Assembly: GCA_965217895.1 (NCBI GenBank)
Contig: CBDCJV010000002.1
Coordinates: forward strand, 2,688,001-2,752,000
Origin: Waterburya sp.
Lineage (GTDB): Bacteria; Cyanobacteriota; Cyanobacteriia; Cyanobacteriales; Xenococcaceae
Direction: 5' to 3'
Length of the DNA: 64,000 nt
The first letter of the stretch is position 1. The number at the start of each line of letters is the position of its first letter. Position numbers and translations under genes: made by a program. The notes under the pieces are model-generated. The model did no database searches. It was given only the letters and a program-made list of their open reading frames with translations, and was not told the origin of the DNA. Positions 4,874 to 52,972 of this stretch are shown here, one piece after another.

Positions 4874-4897
4874 ATTAATAACTGTTCACTAATTTAA

Positions 4898-5285
4898 TGG
4901 AGCCGAGCAGAGTCGAACTGCTGTCCAGACCAACTATTCACTTGCTCATTCATTCACAGGTTTAGCTCCTCTAACCCTTAGAGCGGGGATCATCAATTGT
5001 CCCTGATGGCAGGATTCTTTGATAAAGTCTTTTCCTATGGGTCTACCAAAGAAAACCGATAGGAGCATCCGTTGGGGTTTTGTCTCTAATCCTTAACGGA
5101 GTCAAACTAGAGACGAGCAAATCTAAAAGAGATTTTTAGATTTAGGCAGCTACTGCCTGACGCTCAAATTTTACGATGTTGTTTGCATCTATATTTATTT
5201 TGAGTCTGTATTTACGAGAGGATACTCACTCTCGACCTGAATCACGAGTCAGCTTTTGCTAACCTGTCGAAACCTTTACGGCCCC
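4898..5285 (-). ncRNA. ssrA: tmRNA
   Basis: 5' GGGGCCGTAAAGGTTTCGAC, 3' GTTCGACTCTGCTCGGCTCCA; tag frame 5186..5142 encodes ANNIVKFERQAVAA*. Confidence 0.97.
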
Positions 5286-11209: not shown

Positions 11210-11830
11210 TTTTGACTCTGAAGACTGCATTATGACCCGCCAAAATACAGAACTAAATACTGTCGAATTAGTGGCAAAAGACTTTGGACTTGCAGCTAAT
11301 TTGTTAGCAGATGCTTTTTTCGATAATCCTGCTCACGTATATATTTTTGCCGATCAATCCTCCAGACTAAAAGCATTGCAATGGGAATTAAAAGCTAATC
11401 TTAAGCTTAATTTGAGCCAACCAACACCTATTGGTAAGAGTTTTGCTTTAGTTGAAGCCAATAAACCGCCAGGAAATAGACAAATCAAAGCTATGGCTTT
11501 TTGGAATACTTCCAACTCAAGGTCTATTAGTTTTGTCAGCAAAATCAAGACAGGGCTGCTAACATTTCCGTTTCGCTATGGTTGGCAAACTTGGCAACAT
11601 TTGTCAGAAATAATGTCAGCGATAGAAGAAATTAAAGAGAAAACTATAGGACAAAGCCCAGCATGGTATCTAAATAATATGGTGGTAGCCAAACAAATAA
11701 GAGGGATAGGAATTGGTACAAAACTGCTTAACCATCAACTTCAATCTGTAGTTGTCCCTTCTAATTTTCCTGTCGTTTTGATGGCGAGGGGTGCTACGTG
11801 CGGACAAGTCCTTCGTGTTTAGGAAGCATG

Positions 11831-14008
11831 GTAGAGTTGAGGGAGAGTATTACCTCTGGCCCCTCTCTGTTAGATCTGTACGTGCGTCTTTCGACGCATA
11901 CAGCTCCCGAAACTTTTAGCTGTCGCTTTTACGGTTGTGTATATAGTCATGACAGGATTCGTGTATTGCCACTAAATTGTTATGACTCCAGTTGTTGTGA
12001 TTTCCATCTACATGATGTAGATTTACTTTCTCATTGCCTATGAGTTTTAATCTACAGGCTACAGATGAATGGTTTTGCCTTCTAAGGGCTTTAGAGGTTT
12101 CTCCATCGTATAGTTTGCTGTTGCGTTTACTCCAGTAAACTATATCTCCGTCAAATGGGGATTTATCTCCTTTGACGTTGATGAATTTATTTTCGGAGTA
12201 TGGGACTTTTGGGAACGCTATATCCAGAAGTTTTTTGCTAGAATAACGGTCTTGTTTTGTTTGCCGATTAAATACCTTAAACGCTCTTTTCTGCATATAG
12301 TAGAGGCTATTTCTAGCCCCATCCATTTTGCAGTAGCAATGGTAGTTTCTCCATCCTCTAACAACGGCGGCTAGTTTACTAGCCTTGACCGTCGCACCAT
12401 AGTTGGAGTTATTGATGATAGATTTTGTTTTCCTATAGAAAGCTCTGAAGTTTTCCACCGAAGGTCGGCTTCTGAACTTTCCATTCTTTTGGACTCGAAA
12501 ATTCCAGCCCAGGAAGTTGAATCCATCTGTCGTTGCTGTCAGCTTTGTCTTTGTTTCGCTGATTTCCATTCCTCGTTTGGCAAGGAATTCTTTAACCTCA
12601 TCAAGTATTTTTTTAGCATCGTCTTGAGGTTTTAGGATGTAAATCATATCGTCTGCATATCTAATACATTTTGATGTGCTTAATCCCCTGGTGCTTTTAT
12701 ATTCACCAATGTTCTCAATTGCGTTGAGTGCTATGTTAGCTAATAAAGGCGAAGCAACCCCGCCCTGTGGCGTTCCTTGTTCTGGAAATCCTACATTTGT
12801 TCCTGCTTTGAGGCATCTGAAGATGCCAAGCTTTAACCCTGATGGGGCAATTAGGTTCTCCATAATTGTGGAATGGTTGATTCTATCAAAGCATTTTTTA
12901 ATATCAATTTCGAGTACTCGTTTATTGATACCTTTCACTCTCGCATTTAAGTTGTCGAACAGGTGCTTTTGCGCGCAATGCGTGCTTCTTCCTGTTCTGA
13001 AACCGTAACTACGGGCGTGGAAAGTGGCTTCGTGTGCTGGTTCTAAAGCGTATTTTGCCAGGCATTGCCAAGCTCTGTCGCTAATAGTTGGAACTTTTAA
13101 AATTCGTTTAGTACCATCCTTTTTTGGGATAGGTATTTCCCGTAATCCTTGGTGTTTCCAATTATTAACTTTCAACTTTATTTGTTTTTCGAGTTCAAAG
13201 CGTTCTTGAAAATTCAAGTTACCTTTTCCGTCGATACCAGCGGTTTTCTTTCCCTCGTTTAGCTGTGTTACTTGCCTAATGGCTAAGAATCTTGCTCCTT
13301 GAGAGCGGAGTATCAGTTTTTGCAGTGACCTTGCTTTTTGCATATCTGCTGCTCGAACTGCTTTCCATACGCGCTTTTGTAAGCGGAAAGTCTCTTTTTG
13401 GAATTTCTTCCAAGGTAAGAATTCCCAGGATTCACTATTAACTGTGTCAATGTGTCTAATCATGCTTTACTCTAGTTTGTATGTTCTAAGTTCCTCAGAC
13501 CAATTACGGTCTGTCCTACCCGAATCTAAGGGATTAATCCTCTCGTCTGGTCTACCGTGGATGCGACCTATCCACAGACCTTAGATTCGTTTTTATTCGT
13601 TCCATTCGATTGATGTTTATTTCCTTTAGGTAGAATCAATTAAACCGCCTAAATCCCATACTCTTGCCAATGTCTTGGATAAAACTTGGCGGGATACATA
13701 GCTTAGGCAACCTCGGACTAGGAATTGCGTCCGTGTAGGCGTAGGTTTCTTTTCTAGGTTCTGTTTTACCGTGGGAATTCCCTATTAGCGTCAGTGTCTT
13801 CTGCAATTGAAGTCTGATTACGCCCTGTTCCCAGCTTCGCTCTGTAGAATTCCGAGTCTACTCGGCGTGGGCAGATAAGGAGTCACCCGTGAGTTTCGGG
13901 GGGAGGGCTTGCACCTCCATTAATCGAACAGTTATCATCTAGCTAATGAAAACTAGAAGCCCTGATTTATATGGGTTTTATCTCACTTTCGTCAGGAACG
14001 AATCGCAC
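11831..14008 (-). mobile_element. Group II intron (IIB/chloroplast-like type inferred)
   Basis: 5' GTGCGATTCGTT at 14008; domain V GAGCTGTATGCGTCGAAAGACGCACGTACAGATC (11906-11873) with AGC triad; domain VI with bulged A and 3' end ...AACTCTAC at 11831; RT ORF inside. Confidence 0.95.
11916..13463 (-). CDS. ltrA: Group II intron reverse transcriptase/maturase with C-terminal HNH
   Basis: GKKTAGIDG, PTISDRAWQ, SYGFRTGRS, GTPQGGVASPLLANIAL, RYADD, FLGWNF, VRGWRNY, LHHVDGNHNN...HESCHDYIH. Confidence 0.96.
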   Translation of the reverse strand: MIRHIDTVNSESWEFLPWKKFQKETFRLQKRVWKAVRAADMQKARSLQKLILRSQGARFLAIRQVTQLNEGKKTAGIDGKGNLNFQERFELEKQIKLKVNNWKHQGLREIPIPKKDGTKRILKVPTISDRAWQCLAKYALEPAHEATFHARSYGFRTGRSTHCAQKHLFDNLNARVKGINKRVLEIDIKKCFDRINHSTIMENLIAPSGLKLGIFRCLKAGTNVGFPEQGTPQGGVASPLLANIALNAIENIGEYKSTRGLSTSKCIRYADDMIYILKPQDDAKKILDEVKEFLAKRGMEISETKTKLTATTDGFNFLGWNFRVQKNGKFRSRPSVENFRAFYRKTKSIINNSNYGATVKASKLAAVVRGWRNYHCYCKMDGARNSLYYMQKRAFKVFNRQTKQDRYSSKKLLDIAFPKVPYSENKFINVKGDKSPFDGDIVYWSKRNSKLYDGETSKALRRQNHSSVACRLKLIGNEKVNLHHVDGNHNNWSHNNLVAIHESCHDYIHNRKSDS

Positions 14009-14193
14009 ACCCAATCGCCATGTTGATGACACAGAAAGAAGAAAACGTTAGATTTTATCAGCGATTAGGATTTGAAATTGCCCATAAATCAGTAATAGGC
14101 AGAAAAAATGTGTTTACCAACTGGTGTTTAGTTTTCACTTAGCCACAACTCTAGTAATCAGCAGGCTTTTAACAGCATCAAGATAATTAGCAA

Positions 14194-28493: not shown

Positions 28494-28582
28494 TGTTCGC
28501 AGTGAAGCATTTTCGTTGCGGGGCTTTCCCCGTTGAGACAAAGGACTTGACTTGTCCGCATGTAGTGCTGAACCCGAAGAAC
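28494..28582. repeat. GC-rich nested hairpin micro-element
   Basis: CGGGGCTTTCCCCG hairpin plus GACTTGTCCGCATGTAG, which matches the GNAT micro-element at 16/17 nt. Confidence 0.6.
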
Positions 28583-34565: not shown

Positions 34566-35941
34566 TGGCAGTACAGATTCCCTTTGCTACTGTTTCTAAG
34601 CTGCATGAAGCAAAAGTAATCGAAGATATTTTCTTTACAGGTTTATTGCAGCAGTGTCAGGTGCGTGACAATGAATCTAAGTGGTTGCAAAATGTCCGTC
34701 AACAGTCGAAAAACTGGTTGTCTCGTTTATCTGTACCGACAAACAAGGATGAAGACTGGCGTTTTATTGATTTGTCATCCTTGAGCAAAGCAAAATTTGT
34801 AGCAGCACAAAATGTAGTAGGGGTGTTTCGCGAAAGCGGTGCGACCCCGCGTCGACGAAAGGCGCAAGGGAACGCGCACCAAGACACGCCCCTGCCAGAT
34901 ACAGAATCTAGCCGTTTAGTTTATGTCAACGGAATATACAACGCTGAATTATCAAACATATCAGGGTTGCCCACAGGTGTATACTTTGGTGGTTTGGACG
35001 ATTTACCGAAAGACTATGACGCTGCTCAATATTTTGCTCAACAACATGGTGCGGAGGACGCCTTTACAGCATTAAATACCGCAGGTGGTTTAGATGTAGC
35101 GGTGATTTGGACGAGTAAAGATGTGGTAGTAGAAACTCCAATACACCTAGTGTTTATCGCCGATGGCGAATCAGAGTCTATCTTTGCTCAACCTCGTACC
35201 TTAGTTGTAACAGAAAGTGGCTCAAATATTTCTTTAATCGAAGAATATATTGGTACAGGAGAATACTTCACTAACGCTGTTACCGAAGTTTTTGTCAAAG
35301 ATAACGCCAGAGTAAATCATACCCGTCTGCAAGAAGAATCAGCAGCTAGCTTTCATATTGGCAAAACTGCCGTATCTCAAGGGCGTGATAGTCACTATAC
35401 AATTAACGAGATTAATCTGGGCGCAAAACTATTTCGTCATAACCCAGAGGTATTGCAGCAGGGAGAACAAACCGAAAGCAACCTCAATGGTTTGACTGTA
35501 GCTACAAAAGAACAAGTATCTGATACCCATAGTATTATTGCTTTAACTAAACCTCATGGCACTACAAATCAACTGCATAAATGTATTGTAGGCGATCGCG
35601 CTCACACAGTTTTTAACGGTAAGGTATTTGTCCCCAAAGAAGCACAGCTTACGGATGCCACACAGCTAAACCGCAACCTCTTACTTTCTTCTAAAGCTAG
35701 GGTAGACACTAAGCCAGAGTTACAAATTACCGCCGATAACGTAAAGTGCGCTCATGGTGCAACAGTAAGCCAGCTAGAAGCCGAGGAAATTTTCTATCTT
35801 CGTAGTCGTGGTTTAAGTGAATCTGATGCTAACCAATTATTAATCGATGCTTTTGCAGCAGAGATAGTCGATCGCATTCCTCTAGAATCTTTAAGAAACA
35901 GAATTACCCAGACTATCAAACAAAAAGTTATTAACCAATAA
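34565..35941 (+). CDS. sufD: Fe-S cluster assembly protein SufD carrying an in-frame repeat insertion
   Basis: EDWRFIDL, VFNGKVFV, DTKPELQITADNVKCAHGATV, FYLRSRG; foreign segment at about aa 85-111. Confidence 0.96.
   Translation: MAVQIPFATVSKLHEAKVIEDIFFTGLLQQCQVRDNESKWLQNVRQQSKNWLSRLSVPTNKDEDWRFIDLSSLSKAKFVAAQNVVGVFRESGATPRRRKAQGNAHQDTPLPDTESSRLVYVNGIYNAELSNISGLPTGVYFGGLDDLPKDYDAAQYFAQQHGAEDAFTALNTAGGLDVAVIWTSKDVVVETPIHLVFIADGESESIFAQPRTLVVTESGSNISLIEEYIGTGEYFTNAVTEVFVKDNARVNHTRLQEESAASFHIGKTAVSQGRDSHYTINEINLGAKLFRHNPEVLQQGEQTESNLNGLTVATKEQVSDTHSIIALTKPHGTTNQLHKCIVGDRAHTVFNGKVFVPKEAQLTDATQLNRNLLLSSKARVDTKPELQITADNVKCAHGATVSQLEAEEIFYLRSRGLSESDANQLLIDAFAAEIVDRIPLESLRNRITQTIKQKVINQ
34817..34895. 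repeat. Nested REP-like palindrome inside sufD
   Basis: Outer GTAGGGGTGTTTCGCGAA...ACGCCCCTGC with a 51-nt GC-rich inner insert (34835-34885). Confidence 0.8.
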
Positions 35942-35965
35942 CAAATAGCAAAAATTACCCAAAAT

Positions 35966-37228
35966 ATGACTTTTACCCAAGAGAAAACTTTAGGCGATCG
36001 CGTCAGAGGCGACTTCCCGATTTTACATCAGAAGGTTAACGATAATCCCTTGATTTATTTTGATAGTGCTGCCTCTTCTCAAAAACCCCAAGCAGTATTA
36101 GATGTATTGCAACATTATTATCAACAGGATAATGCCAATGTTCACCGTGGGGCGCATACATTAAGTGGGAGGGCGACAGATGCCTATGAAGGGGCAAGAG
36201 ACAAAATTGCTCAGTTTATTAATGCTGCTTCGCGAGAAGAGATTGTTTTTACTCGTAACGCCAGTGAAGCAATCAACTTGGTGGCATATAGTTGGGGACT
36301 AGCTAACCTCAAACCAGGAGACGAGATTATTCTCTCGGTAATGGAACATCACAGCAACATTGTTCCCTGGCAGCTTATCTCTCAGAAAACTGGTGCGATA
36401 CTTAAATATGTCGAACTTACTCCCAACGAAGAGTTTGATTTTGAGCAATACAAGTCTTTGTTGTCAGATAAAACTAAGCTAGTTTCTCTTGTTCATGTTT
36501 CTAATACTTTGGGAGTGATTAATCCAGTAGCAGAAATTACTAAAGAAGCTCATAAATATGGCGCAAAAGTATTAATTGATGCTTGCCAAAGCGTTCCTCA
36601 TCTACCAGTTGATGTTCAGGCAATCGATTGTGATTGGTTAGTAGCATCAGGACATAAGATGTGTGCTACTACAGGGATTGGCTTTCTCTATGGTAAAAAA
36701 GATATCTTGCTAGATATGCCTCCTTTTATGGGTGGTGGAGAAATGATTGACGAGGTATTTCTCGATCATTCTACCTATGGGGATTTACCTCATAAATTTG
36801 AAGCGGGAACTCCTGCTATTGGTGAAGCGATCGCCCTTGGTGCAGCAATAGATTATCTTAATAACATAGGCATGGATAAGATTCACGCTTATGAAGAAGA
36901 GTTGACTGCCTACTTATTTAAGCAATTAGAAACAATTCCTAACCTCAGAATCTACGGTAATAAACCTACCCTAGAAGGTAAAGGCAGAGCAGCTTTAGCA
37001 GCTTTTAACGTGCCAGGAATACACGCCAGCGACTTAGCAACTCTGTTAGATCATGAAGGTATTGCCATTCGCTCAGGACATCACTGTACCCAACCACTAC
37101 ACCGTATTTTTAATGCTTCTGGTAGCGCAAGAGCTAGTCTATATTTTTACAACACCCGCGAAGAAATTGATGCTTTTATTACGGCTTTGAAAAGTACGAT
37201 TGATTTTTTTAATAGTATGAATGAGTAA
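35966..37228 (+). CDS. sufS: Cysteine desulfurase SufS
   Basis: [37 protein letters not shown]. Confidence 0.97.
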
Positions 37229-37256
37229 GTAGCAAGCAGCTAATATTAAAAGTGAT

Positions 37257-37393
37257 GGCGTTGCTGAATGTGTAATGCTAAAAAGATATTTAGCTTATTT
37301 ATTAAGTAGTGATGATTTCTTAAAAGCTTACAGCTTACAGCTTACAGCTATGAACAGTCATCCTTTGTACGACATTACTTAATCAGCAACGCC
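37257..37393. mobile_element. MITE, copy 1 (GGCGTTGCTGA TIR, 8-bp TSD)
   Basis: TIR GGCGTTGCTGA/TCAGCAACGCC; perfect TSD AAAGTGAT at 37249-37256 and 37394-37401; internal (AGCTTAC)3. Confidence 0.9.
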
Positions 37394-37567
37394 AAAGTGA
37401 TTAAATTAGACACGCGATAAAAAGAATTATACTGATCCATACATGAATATATTTGTTGTACGTAAATATTTTCATAGTTTAATTGTAGACTTTGAATATC
37501 TATAATATTCCCAGTCTGAGAAGGTTTCTTTTCTACAAATTTGTGAAAAATGATTACTAGTAATTAT

Positions 37568-38032
37568 TTAGTCTTGAGGTAAATAGTCAGGATTCAGAGC
37601 TTCTGAAGGGGTAAAAGGTGAAAGAGTAGGAAAAGTATCAACAGGTAATCCTGTCTCATCGGCAGCTTGTTCTCTTCCGTCTTGGTAACATTGCTTAAAA
37701 ACTTCTTCAAAGTAAGGTTTTAAGCTTGGGCTGGTTTGAAAATCATCTCTTAATCTGCGTCGATGCTCTCTAATACTGGATTTCCAGCTATTCGTTCTTT
37801 TAGTTGGTTGATATTTATATTTGAGCAAATGAAGCAGCACAATGACCAAATTACTTTTGACTGCCCGTTTCTCACTTCTGCCCATGTCTTCAATTTCTTC
37901 AATTAAATTGGCTGTATCTATCTGGGAAAATTTACCTTCCTTGATTAGTTGGGCAGTATGAGACAACCAAAGATAATAATCGCGATCATAAAGATCTGTC
38001 GTATTAGTATTAGTTGATAATTGAGTAGTCAT
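37568..38032 (-). CDS. DUF29 family protein
   Basis: LYDRDYYLW, NLIEEIEDMGRSE, LLHLLKYKYQP, SWKSSIREHR, SPSLK. Confidence 0.92.
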   Translation of the reverse strand: MTTQLSTNTNTTDLYDRDYYLWLSHTAQLIKEGKFSQIDTANLIEEIEDMGRSEKRAVKSNLVIVLLHLLKYKYQPTKRTNSWKSSIREHRRRLRDDFQTSPSLKPYFEEVFKQCYQDGREQAADETGLPVDTFPTLSPFTPSEALNPDYLPQD

Positions 38033-41337: not shown

Positions 41338-41473
41338 GTCACAGATTGCTCTGTCCGTTTAGGAGTCCACTTTGCCTGGGGTGTCCCCAGGCATTTATGA
41401 GCGTGGGCTATGCCGAACTTGGTTTCGCATCTAGAACCACGCTGTTGTGGGACGTGGAGGAGTAATCTGTGAC
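41338..41473. repeat. Long hairpin 3' of sodN filled with nested GC-rich micro-elements
   Basis: Outer GTCACAGATTGCTC / GAGTAATCTGTGAC; inner TGCCTGGGG-TGT-CCCCAGGCA and AGCGTGG/CCACGCT; blocks shared with 59601-59646. Confidence 0.75.
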
Positions 41474-42284: not shown

Positions 42285-42373
42285 CGGAGAGGGGGGGATT
42301 CGAACCCCCGATGAAGTTTACACCCCATAACTCCTTAGCAGGGAGCCGCTTTCAACCGCTCAGCCACCTCTCC
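42285..42373 (-). tRNA. tRNA-Ser(GCT)
   Basis: GGAGAGG acceptor stem, anticodon arm CTCC-CTGCTAA-GGAG, long variable arm, GGTTCGAATCC. Confidence 0.95.
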
Positions 42374-44863: not shown

Positions 44864-45028
44864 GGCGTTGCTGATTAAGTAATGTCGTACAAAAGATTAC
44901 TATCTGTAGCTATAAGCTTTTTTAAATCAACATGGCGATTGGACTTGCTTGCAGACCCCGCGTCGCCATCAAACTCTATTTTTGAAGAGACAAAATAATG
45001 CTTCATAGCATTACAATTCAGCAACGCC
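44864..45028. mobile_element. MITE, copy 2 (opposite orientation), containing a 42-nt micro-element
   Basis: TIR GGCGTTGCTGA; perfect TSD AAACCAAC at 44856-44863 and 45029-45036; ends match the reverse complement of 37257-37393. Confidence 0.9.
44931..44972 (+). repeat. 42-nt micro-element with ATCAA duplication
   Basis: ATCAA|CATGGCGATTGG...GTCGCCATCAA; absent from MITE copy 1. Confidence 0.8.
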
Positions 45029-50140: not shown

Positions 50141-50212
50141 AGCCCCCAGTGAGAATTGAACTCACGGCCTCATTCTTACCAAGAATGCGCGCTACCACTG
50201 GGCTATGGGGGC
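50141..50212 (-). tRNA. tRNA-Thr(GGT)
   Basis: GCCCCCA/TGGGGGC acceptor, CATTC-TTGGTAA-GAATG anticodon arm, GTGAG-TTCAATT-CTCAC T arm; one D-stem mismatch. Confidence 0.9.
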
Positions 50213-52899: not shown

Positions 52900-52972
52900 T
52901 ACCCCCAAGGGAATTTGAATCCCTGTCGCCTCCGTGAAAGGGAGGTGTCCTAGGCCACTAGACGATGGGGGC
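52900..52972 (-). tRNA. tRNA-Glu(TTC)
   Basis: GCCCCCATCGTCTAGTGGCCTAGGACACCTCCCTTTCACGGAGG...GGGGGTA. Confidence 0.96.

What the first reader, a model, noticed from the sequence alone, without database searches (positions are those of the whole stretch)
11778..14027. Group II intron inserted into a tiny mobile repeat, with EBS1 matching the repeat
Seen: removing the intron (11831-14008) does not restore the GNAT gene. It leaves 67 extra nt: minus strand CATGGCGATTGGGT|CATGCTTCCTAAACACGAAGGACTTGTCCGCACGTAGCACCCCTCGCC plus a duplicated ATCAA. The 5' exon ends TTGGGT. The intron has a stem-loop with loop AUCCAA (plus strand 13675-13680) that pairs 6/6 with it (one G-U). About 55 nt further upstream, CGCC (13738-13741) can pair with exon GGCG, as expected for EBS2/IBS2. 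An intron-free element with the same ends (ATCAACATGGCGATTGG, 17/17; TCGCCATCAAA) lies at 44926-44973 and presents GGCGA-TTGGAC. Established: group II introns choose targets by EBS-IBS pairing and often sit in other mobile DNA. Inference: this intron lineage may use a dispersed micro-repeat family as a renewable landing pad, and its RT could also help move those repeats.
Basis: partly seen in the sequence, partly recalled or inferred. Interest (0 to 1): 0.8.

Follow-up and report, generated by a model that had tools for sequence, protein, structure and literature searches.

The report
Intron homing into 48-base mobile hairpins
A self-splicing mobile intron in a cyanobacterium has landed in copies of a tiny mobile hairpin repeat by base-pairing with it, and related genomes show the steps in order: empty site, repeat alone, repeat plus intron; the strategy is known, but this repeat and the shared sequence after the intron are unusual.

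Summary
Real, with corrections. A 2,179-nt group IIB intron (11830-14008, minus; one base longer than reported) sits in a 66-nt copy of a 48-nt hairpin repeat. EBS1, EBS2 and EBS3 are confirmed by covariation in relatives. All 3 full copies in this genome sit in the same repeat variant. Orthologous sites in close relatives are empty or hold the repeat alone, so at two of the three sites the repeat came first and the intron homed into it. The intron's closest relatives sit at the same position in other variants of the repeat. The repeat (38 of 39 genus genomes) keeps its length and fold while its stems vary, and it inserts precisely. No transposase partner was found, and nothing shows that the intron's RT moves it. 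One oddity: all 3 copies share a rare nested 21-mer in the 3' exon that the repeat-only alleles lack, so downstream exon sequence spread between sites, by later gene conversion or by co-conversion. Introns homing into dispersed repeats are known (RmInt2), and this scan noted the habit at least 8 times on other DNA. The 44931-44972 element is a weak target.

The parts
11830..14008 (-). Group IIB intron, 2,179 nt, 5' GTGCG, 3' end CUACC
   Evidence: three near-identical full copies in G000
11916..13463 (-). Intron-encoded protein, 515 aa: RT (YADD), maturase, C-terminal HNH-like segment whose first zinc cysteine is Ser
   Evidence: Pfam RVT_N, RVT_1, GIIM, no HNH hit at E<=0.001; 22 of 22 other proteins whose segment was printed keep CxxC; same protein in all 3 copies
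13675..13680 (-). EBS1 (AUCCAA), pairs 6 of 6 with IBS1 TTGGGT, one wobble
   Evidence: covariation, 88 of 90 pairs in 15 distinct EBS sets
13737..13741 (-). EBS2 (CGCCU), pairs 4 of 5 with IBS2 TGGCG
   Evidence: covariation, 67 of 75 pairs
13639..13639 (-). EBS3 (U), pairs with the first 3'-exon base A at 11829
   Evidence: 12 of 12 introns with a 3' end found pair at this column, one by wobble
11830..11908 (-). Domains 5 and 6
   Evidence: Rfam RF00029, 53.4 bits
14009..14022 (-). 5' part of the hairpin repeat (5' exon; carries IBS2 and IBS1)
11778..11829 (-). 3' part of the repeat (3' exon), ending in TCAA
11796..11816 (-). Nested 21-nt repeat in the 3' exon (net +18 nt); stem variant found only beside the 3 introns
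   Evidence: 3 of 40 occurrences in G000 have this stem; absent from repeat-only orthologous alleles
14023..14027 (-). Host target word ATCAA
   Evidence: empty sites keep one ATCAA
11232..11782 (+). 5' part of the interrupted acetyltransferase-like gene
14028..14142 (+). 3' part of the interrupted gene
44931..44972 (+). Intron-free, shortened (42-nt) member of the repeat family; weak target

Best explanation
Two steps. First, a 48-nt non-autonomous hairpin repeat inserts precisely into CA^A sites, mostly within TCAA (shown by empty and filled alleles; the enzyme is unknown, and I infer an SDR-like route through a single strand). Second, a group IIB intron sub-lineage retrohomes into it: EBS2 pairs with the outer stem arm, EBS1 with the next 6 nt and EBS3 with the following A (pairing shown by covariation; reverse splicing and reverse transcription inferred from the family). 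Because new repeat copies keep arising, the intron keeps getting new targets; in this genome every exact-match copy is occupied. Afterwards, or during homing, the first 34 or more bases of one copy's 3' exon replaced those at one or more other sites (shown as a pattern; mechanism inferred, most likely gene conversion between the 2.2-kb copies).
For: Site upstream of folD: empty in G017, repeat alone in G023, G019 and G020, repeat plus intron in G000; of 29 genus loci examined, only those 3 showed the repeat motif. Site beside the methyltransferase gene: empty in G023, repeat alone in G017, deleted in G019 and G020, not alignable in G030. EBS1 88 of 90 and EBS2 67 of 75 pairs against permuted means of 39 and 34, 0 of 20,000 permutations as high (relatives are not independent). 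Of 36 intron 5' ends, the 6 that are 83% or more like ours follow the repeat's 5' half with 4 different stems; none of the 16 lower-ranked ends printed does. 3' ends in G006 (2 variants) and G020/G017 run into other repeat variants. Intron-free exact-type targets: 19 in 9 of 39 genus genomes, 0 in G000. Exon differences among the 3 copies are enriched over intron differences (2 of 4 non-junction events in 2.9% of the bases, P about 0.005). Contigs of other samples hold close intron relatives with new flanks and intron-free variants.
Against: No repeat-only allele was found for the window's own site: the host gene is missing there in the 5 relatives searched. The shared nested 21-mer is not expected from plain retrohoming (PMC2504315 passage). 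Two empty family members tie with the occupied variant on my crude pairing score (10.5), and 3 non-repeat sites score 11 and are empty, so pairing alone does not explain the choice. The relatives' introns in other variants are fragments, so EBS changes tracking the repeat's stems could not be tested. The HNH zinc motif is altered. No splicing or homing was observed.
Confidence: 0.88

Rival explanations
1. The repeat plus intron moves as one 2.2-kb DNA cassette by the repeat's own machinery, inserting at new sites or replacing resident repeats.
For: All 3 copies share the same 66-nt variant with a private 21-mer and no intron-free twin exists in G000. The window's site has no known repeat-only state.
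Against: Two sites already held the repeat in relatives. 39 of 40 hits of a flank-free scan have a 30-nt interior. Related introns occupy other variants. A close intron in run X3 has a 3' exon that departs after 4 bases.
Confidence: 0.08
2. The intron's RT mobilises the repeat: splicing regenerates the hairpin RNA, the RT copies it to new sites, and the intron re-invades.
For: Splicing restores the family fold. No autonomous partner was found: one short Y1 transposase frame and two IS110-like genes have ends unlike the repeat. Group II intron sequences occur in 33 of 36 genus genomes searched. An RNA route was proposed for SDR elements (recalled).
Against: The repeat is in 38 of 39 genus genomes, the junction in 4 of 39. 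G016 holds the repeat but gave no intron match (draft genome). A 48-mer has no ribozyme for reverse splicing. The folded strand is not settled (5 of 18 fold better on the intron's strand; G-U pairs in 7 of 16 favour it).
Confidence: 0.1
3. For the shared 3' exon only: it is copied during homing itself (cDNA from unspliced precursor, or break repair from the donor locus), not by later gene conversion.
For: The folD copy keeps a private change at +40, outside the shared tract; the second copy has a 3-nt junction deletion and changes at +1 and +28. The endonuclease zinc motif is altered in all 3 copies.
Against: Bacterial retrohoming is described as not converting flanking exons (PMC2504315). Ordinary conversion between near-identical 2.2-kb copies gives the same pattern. 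Spread of the 66-nt form between repeats before the intron came is a third option. One genome only.
Confidence: 0.3

Closest known systems
RmInt2 of Sinorhizobium meliloti in the inverted repeats of ISRm17; RmInt1 in ISRm2011-2 (PMC4615759, passages seen)
   Same: A group II intron uses EBS-IBS pairing to home into a multicopy mobile element, with imperfect EBS2 pairing tolerated.
   Different: The host here is a 48-nt element with no gene and variable stems, not an IS. The intron has an HNH-like segment and is from a cyanobacterial lineage.
Thermosynechococcus elongatus TeI3/TeI4 introns and Methanosarcina twintrons (PMC2882425 and PMC4424553, passages seen)
   Same: Cyanobacterial IIB introns spread by EBS change; nested homing gives a 'perpetual homing site'. 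Sister lineages of this intron do target other introns.
   Different: This sub-lineage targets a small repeat, not another intron.
Class C (IIC) and IIC-attC introns (PMC4424553, passages seen)
   Same: Insertion at hairpin-forming DNA.
   Different: Here the full EBS1, EBS2 and EBS3 set covaries with the target, as in IIB homing, and the site is inside the hairpin arm.
Small dispersed repeats (SDR) of Nostoc (Elhai et al. 2008; paper not held; content recalled; cited in PMC5861425, PMC4390886 and PMC3116915, passages seen)
   Same: Very small, precise, nested insertions in cyanobacteria with conserved fold and lengths divisible by three.
   Different: 48 nt against 21-27 nt (recalled); not targeted to HIP1 as SDR5 is; PMC5861425 says no SDR-like repeat was found outside Nostocaceae. 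Sequence identity with any SDR could not be tested.

Membership tests
Group IIB intron | GUGYG 5' end and domain 5/6 | tested here: met
Group IIB intron | EBS1, EBS2 and EBS3 pairing with exons | tested here: met
Group IIB intron | RT/maturase protein with YADD | tested here: met
Group IIB intron | Intact endonuclease domain | tested here: inconclusive
   H-N-H residues visible, first zinc Cys is Ser, no Pfam HNH hit
Group IIB intron | Splicing and retrohoming activity | not testable with these tools
   no RNA holder listed
Chloroplast-like (CL1/CL2) class | Placement of the protein in the CL clade | tested here: inconclusive
   best solved relative 6me0, E 6e-64 (that it is the T. elongatus protein is recalled); no tree with reference classes was built
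SDR elements | Precise insertion shown by empty sites | tested here: met
   11 of 39 members had an empty-site match in G000, several of them loose; orthologous empty sites
SDR elements | Fold kept by compensatory changes | tested here: met
   14 of 16 pairs change on both sides; members were chosen partly by pairing, but the three pairs not required still pair in 43 of 48 cells
SDR elements | Length 21-27 nt (recalled) | tested here: not met
   unit is 48 nt; the nested 21-mer does fit
SDR elements | Sequence match to a named SDR family | not testable with these tools
   paper not held
REP/REPIN or IS200/IS605-derived element | Linked Y1 transposase with matching ends | tested here: not met
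   one short Y1 frame in G000, flanks unlike the repeat
MITE | Fixed terminal repeats, target duplication and a parent IS | tested here: not met
   stems vary, duplication not general, no long element with these ends in G000

The most novel reading that the evidence does not exclude
The 48-nt hairpin is an undescribed minimal mobile unit that moves as RNA, and the intron and repeat form a cycle: splicing regenerates the unit, the RT spreads it, the intron re-invades, and homing carries the downstream half of the repeat with it, which bacterial retrohoming is not supposed to do.
Probability: 0.12. Interest if true: 0.85.

Novelty: new variant of a known kind. Interest (0 to 1): 0.52.

Why it matters
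It gives a directly observed order of events (empty, repeat, repeat plus intron) at two orthologous sites, which is usually only inferred. How very small cyanobacterial repeats move is an open question (my knowledge of the field). A splicing intron inside the repeat is a natural reporter for it: new copies that lack the intron and have a precise junction would show an RNA step. If the shared 3' exon comes from homing itself, bacterial group II introns can carry flanking sequence. If it comes from gene conversion, the intron part is an ordinary, well-documented case.

Tried and rejected
HIP1 insertion (SDR5-like): rejected, since other stems lack HIP1 and no minimal HIP1-only form was found in G000. 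Autonomous partner: Y1 transposase, IS110-like genes and long elements with the repeat's ends gave nothing in G000; 8 RT matches were listed but only the intron copies were examined closely. Full-length relatives in other repeat variants, wanted for EBS tracking: only fragments; the order-wide junction search added one loose match that I did not follow up (4 of 401 genomes). Named collections gave more distant introns with unrelated exons (8 loci; 15 loci). Folded strand of the repeat: inconclusive. Expression: no RNA holder listed, which is no evidence either way. Only 4 of 23 listed runs were laid, all as contigs. Of 12 intron-free exact-type repeats in relatives, my script placed 3 on G000 (2 at the folD intron, 1 empty) and failed on 9, including the G017 allele that one search aligns by hand. 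Literature: searches (0 papers; 0 papers) listed no description of this repeat or this intron-repeat pair; the library lacks Elhai 2008 and most subscription papers, and no supplements were opened, so absence from print is not established.

Full report
Observation. The window holds a group II intron on the minus strand, starting GTGCG at 14008, with Rfam domain 5/6 at 11831-11908 and a 515-aa RT protein. Removing the intron alone leaves the host gene broken; removing 11783-14027 restores it, and 10 of 10 homologues fetched are uninterrupted there. The intron's 3' end is one base further than reported. Related introns nested in known sequence end in ACC, EBS3 pairs with the next base in 12 of 12 introns whose 3' end was found (10 of 22 rows had none), and repeat-only alleles read TTGGGT then ATGC. 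The intron is therefore 11830-14008 (2,179 nt) and the leftover is 66 nt.

Targeting. I aligned domain 1 of 22 intron copies, chosen from 53 5' ends as those covering the domain. In 15 distinct sets, EBS1 pairs in 88 of 90 positions and EBS2 in 67 of 75, against permuted means of 39 and 34 (relatives are not independent). This fixes EBS1 at 13675-13680, EBS2 at 13737-13741 and EBS3 at 13639. Energy folding alone leaves only AUCC in the loop, so the assignment rests on covariation.

The repeat. TCAACA, a 6-bp stem and a closing TCAA gave 32 GC-rich hits on the chromosome against 0-2 for ten control word pairs. A scan without flank constraints gave 40 hits, 39 with a 30-nt interior and 35 preceded by TCAA. 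The unit is 48 nt with three stacked stems; 14 of 16 pairs change on both sides (partly circular, since members were picked by pairing). A covariance model found 78 matches in G000 at E<=0.01 (150 of 1,561 candidates scored), matches in 38 of 39 genus genomes and in 11 of 121 genomes across the order, some only partial. Empty alleles show precise insertion; 3 of 23 contexts lie in frames of 295 aa or more without a stop. A second flank type inserts 48 nt with no TCAA repeat (7 filled), so the apparent duplication is better read as a CA^A site that the element's end resembles. No autonomous partner was found. It works like the SDR elements of Nostoc (recalled; paper not held), but membership is not shown.

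Order of events. G000 has 3 full copies, all in the same variant with different outer flanks. That alone would fit a travelling cassette. Relatives argue otherwise for two sites. Upstream of folD, G017 is empty, G023, G019 and G020 carry the 48-nt repeat alone, and G000 carries repeat plus intron. Beside the methyltransferase gene, G023 is empty and G017 has the repeat alone; G019 and G020 have a deletion and G030 does not align. For the window's own site no such allele was found, as the host gene is missing in the 5 relatives searched. Precise intron loss in each relative is a less economical reading that I did not test with a tree.

Lineage habit. Six of 36 intron 5' ends are 83% or more like ours; all 6 follow the repeat's 5' half, with 4 different stems, while none of the 16 lower-ranked ends printed does. 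The junction occurs in 4 of 39 genus genomes. 3' ends in G006 and G020/G017 run into three more variants (my pattern missed one of these and flagged one false case). These relatives are fragments. Contigs of runs X3 and X5 hold close introns with new flanks, and X1 and X5 hold intron-free variants (partly inferred from joint letters, and X1 may be the window's own source sample). Exact-type empty targets number 19 in 9 of 39 genomes and 0 in G000. Against a pure pairing rule: 2 empty family members tie with the occupied variant and 3 non-repeat sites score higher, so the protein probably also reads distal bases (inference).

The oddity. All 3 G000 copies carry a nested 21-mer at +14 to +34 of the 3' exon, in a stem variant seen in only 3 of 40 occurrences. 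The repeat-only alleles at both sites lack it. So at least one site took on another's 3' exon. Bacterial retrohoming is described as not converting flanking exons (PMC2504315, passage). I put later gene conversion at about 0.5, co-conversion during homing at 0.3 and earlier repeat-to-repeat replacement at 0.2. All 3 proteins have Ser for the first zinc Cys, kept in 22 of 22 relatives whose segment was printed; its effect is untested.

Comparison and verdict. Homing into multicopy mobile DNA is known from RmInt2 and RmInt1 (PMC4615759, passages) and nested introns (PMC4424553, PMC2882425, passages). This scan lists 8 similar unchecked findings on other DNA, which gave me the RmInt2 lead; none matched this repeat by sequence. 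The new parts are the host, the stepwise alleles and the shared 3' exon. The landing-pad reading holds; RT-driven movement of the repeat is unsupported. New variant of a known kind; interest 0.52.

Noticed in passing
G000:C2:5131004-5131055 (in L219): A copy of the 48-nt repeat sits inside domain 1 of another, degenerate group II intron, on the same strand: nesting runs both ways.
   Followed up: partly
window 41397-41448, minus (G000:C2:2729397-2729448): A further, diverged member of the repeat family in the window (E 0.0014).
   Followed up: no
window 28549-28565 (G000:C2:2716549-2716565) and about 40 places in G000: A 21-nt repeat with a covarying 3-bp terminal stem; it replaces 3 nt at the same spot of the 48-mer's loop in G000, G017 and G023.
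   Followed up: partly
L002, L042, L043, L046, L031, L015: Sister introns target other group II introns (a domain 1 site, or the RT gene); in G036 one invaded a repeat-resident intron.
   Followed up: partly
L152:1392-3713 (G000:C2 near 35400-37700): The third intron copy lies between a divergent gene and the start of a folD-like gene (name read from the sequence, recalled), about 100 nt upstream of it, so it may sit in that gene's leader.
   Followed up: no
G000:C2:274054-274059 (L151): The second copy has a 3-nt deletion at the intron 3' end and an A-to-T change at exon +1; it may not splice.
   Followed up: partly
L276 (G023) and L277 (G017): A second repeat copy of another variant lies about 10 nt from the first site in G023, with a remnant in G017 and none in G000; the G017 loop is inverted.
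   Followed up: no
L212, L213 (G000:C2:3923021, 2845720): Two divergent IS110-like genes share a conserved upstream segment also found at C2:841000.
   Followed up: no
window 4895-5285, 42285-42373, 50141-50212, 52900-52972: tmRNA and three tRNA genes.
   Followed up: no
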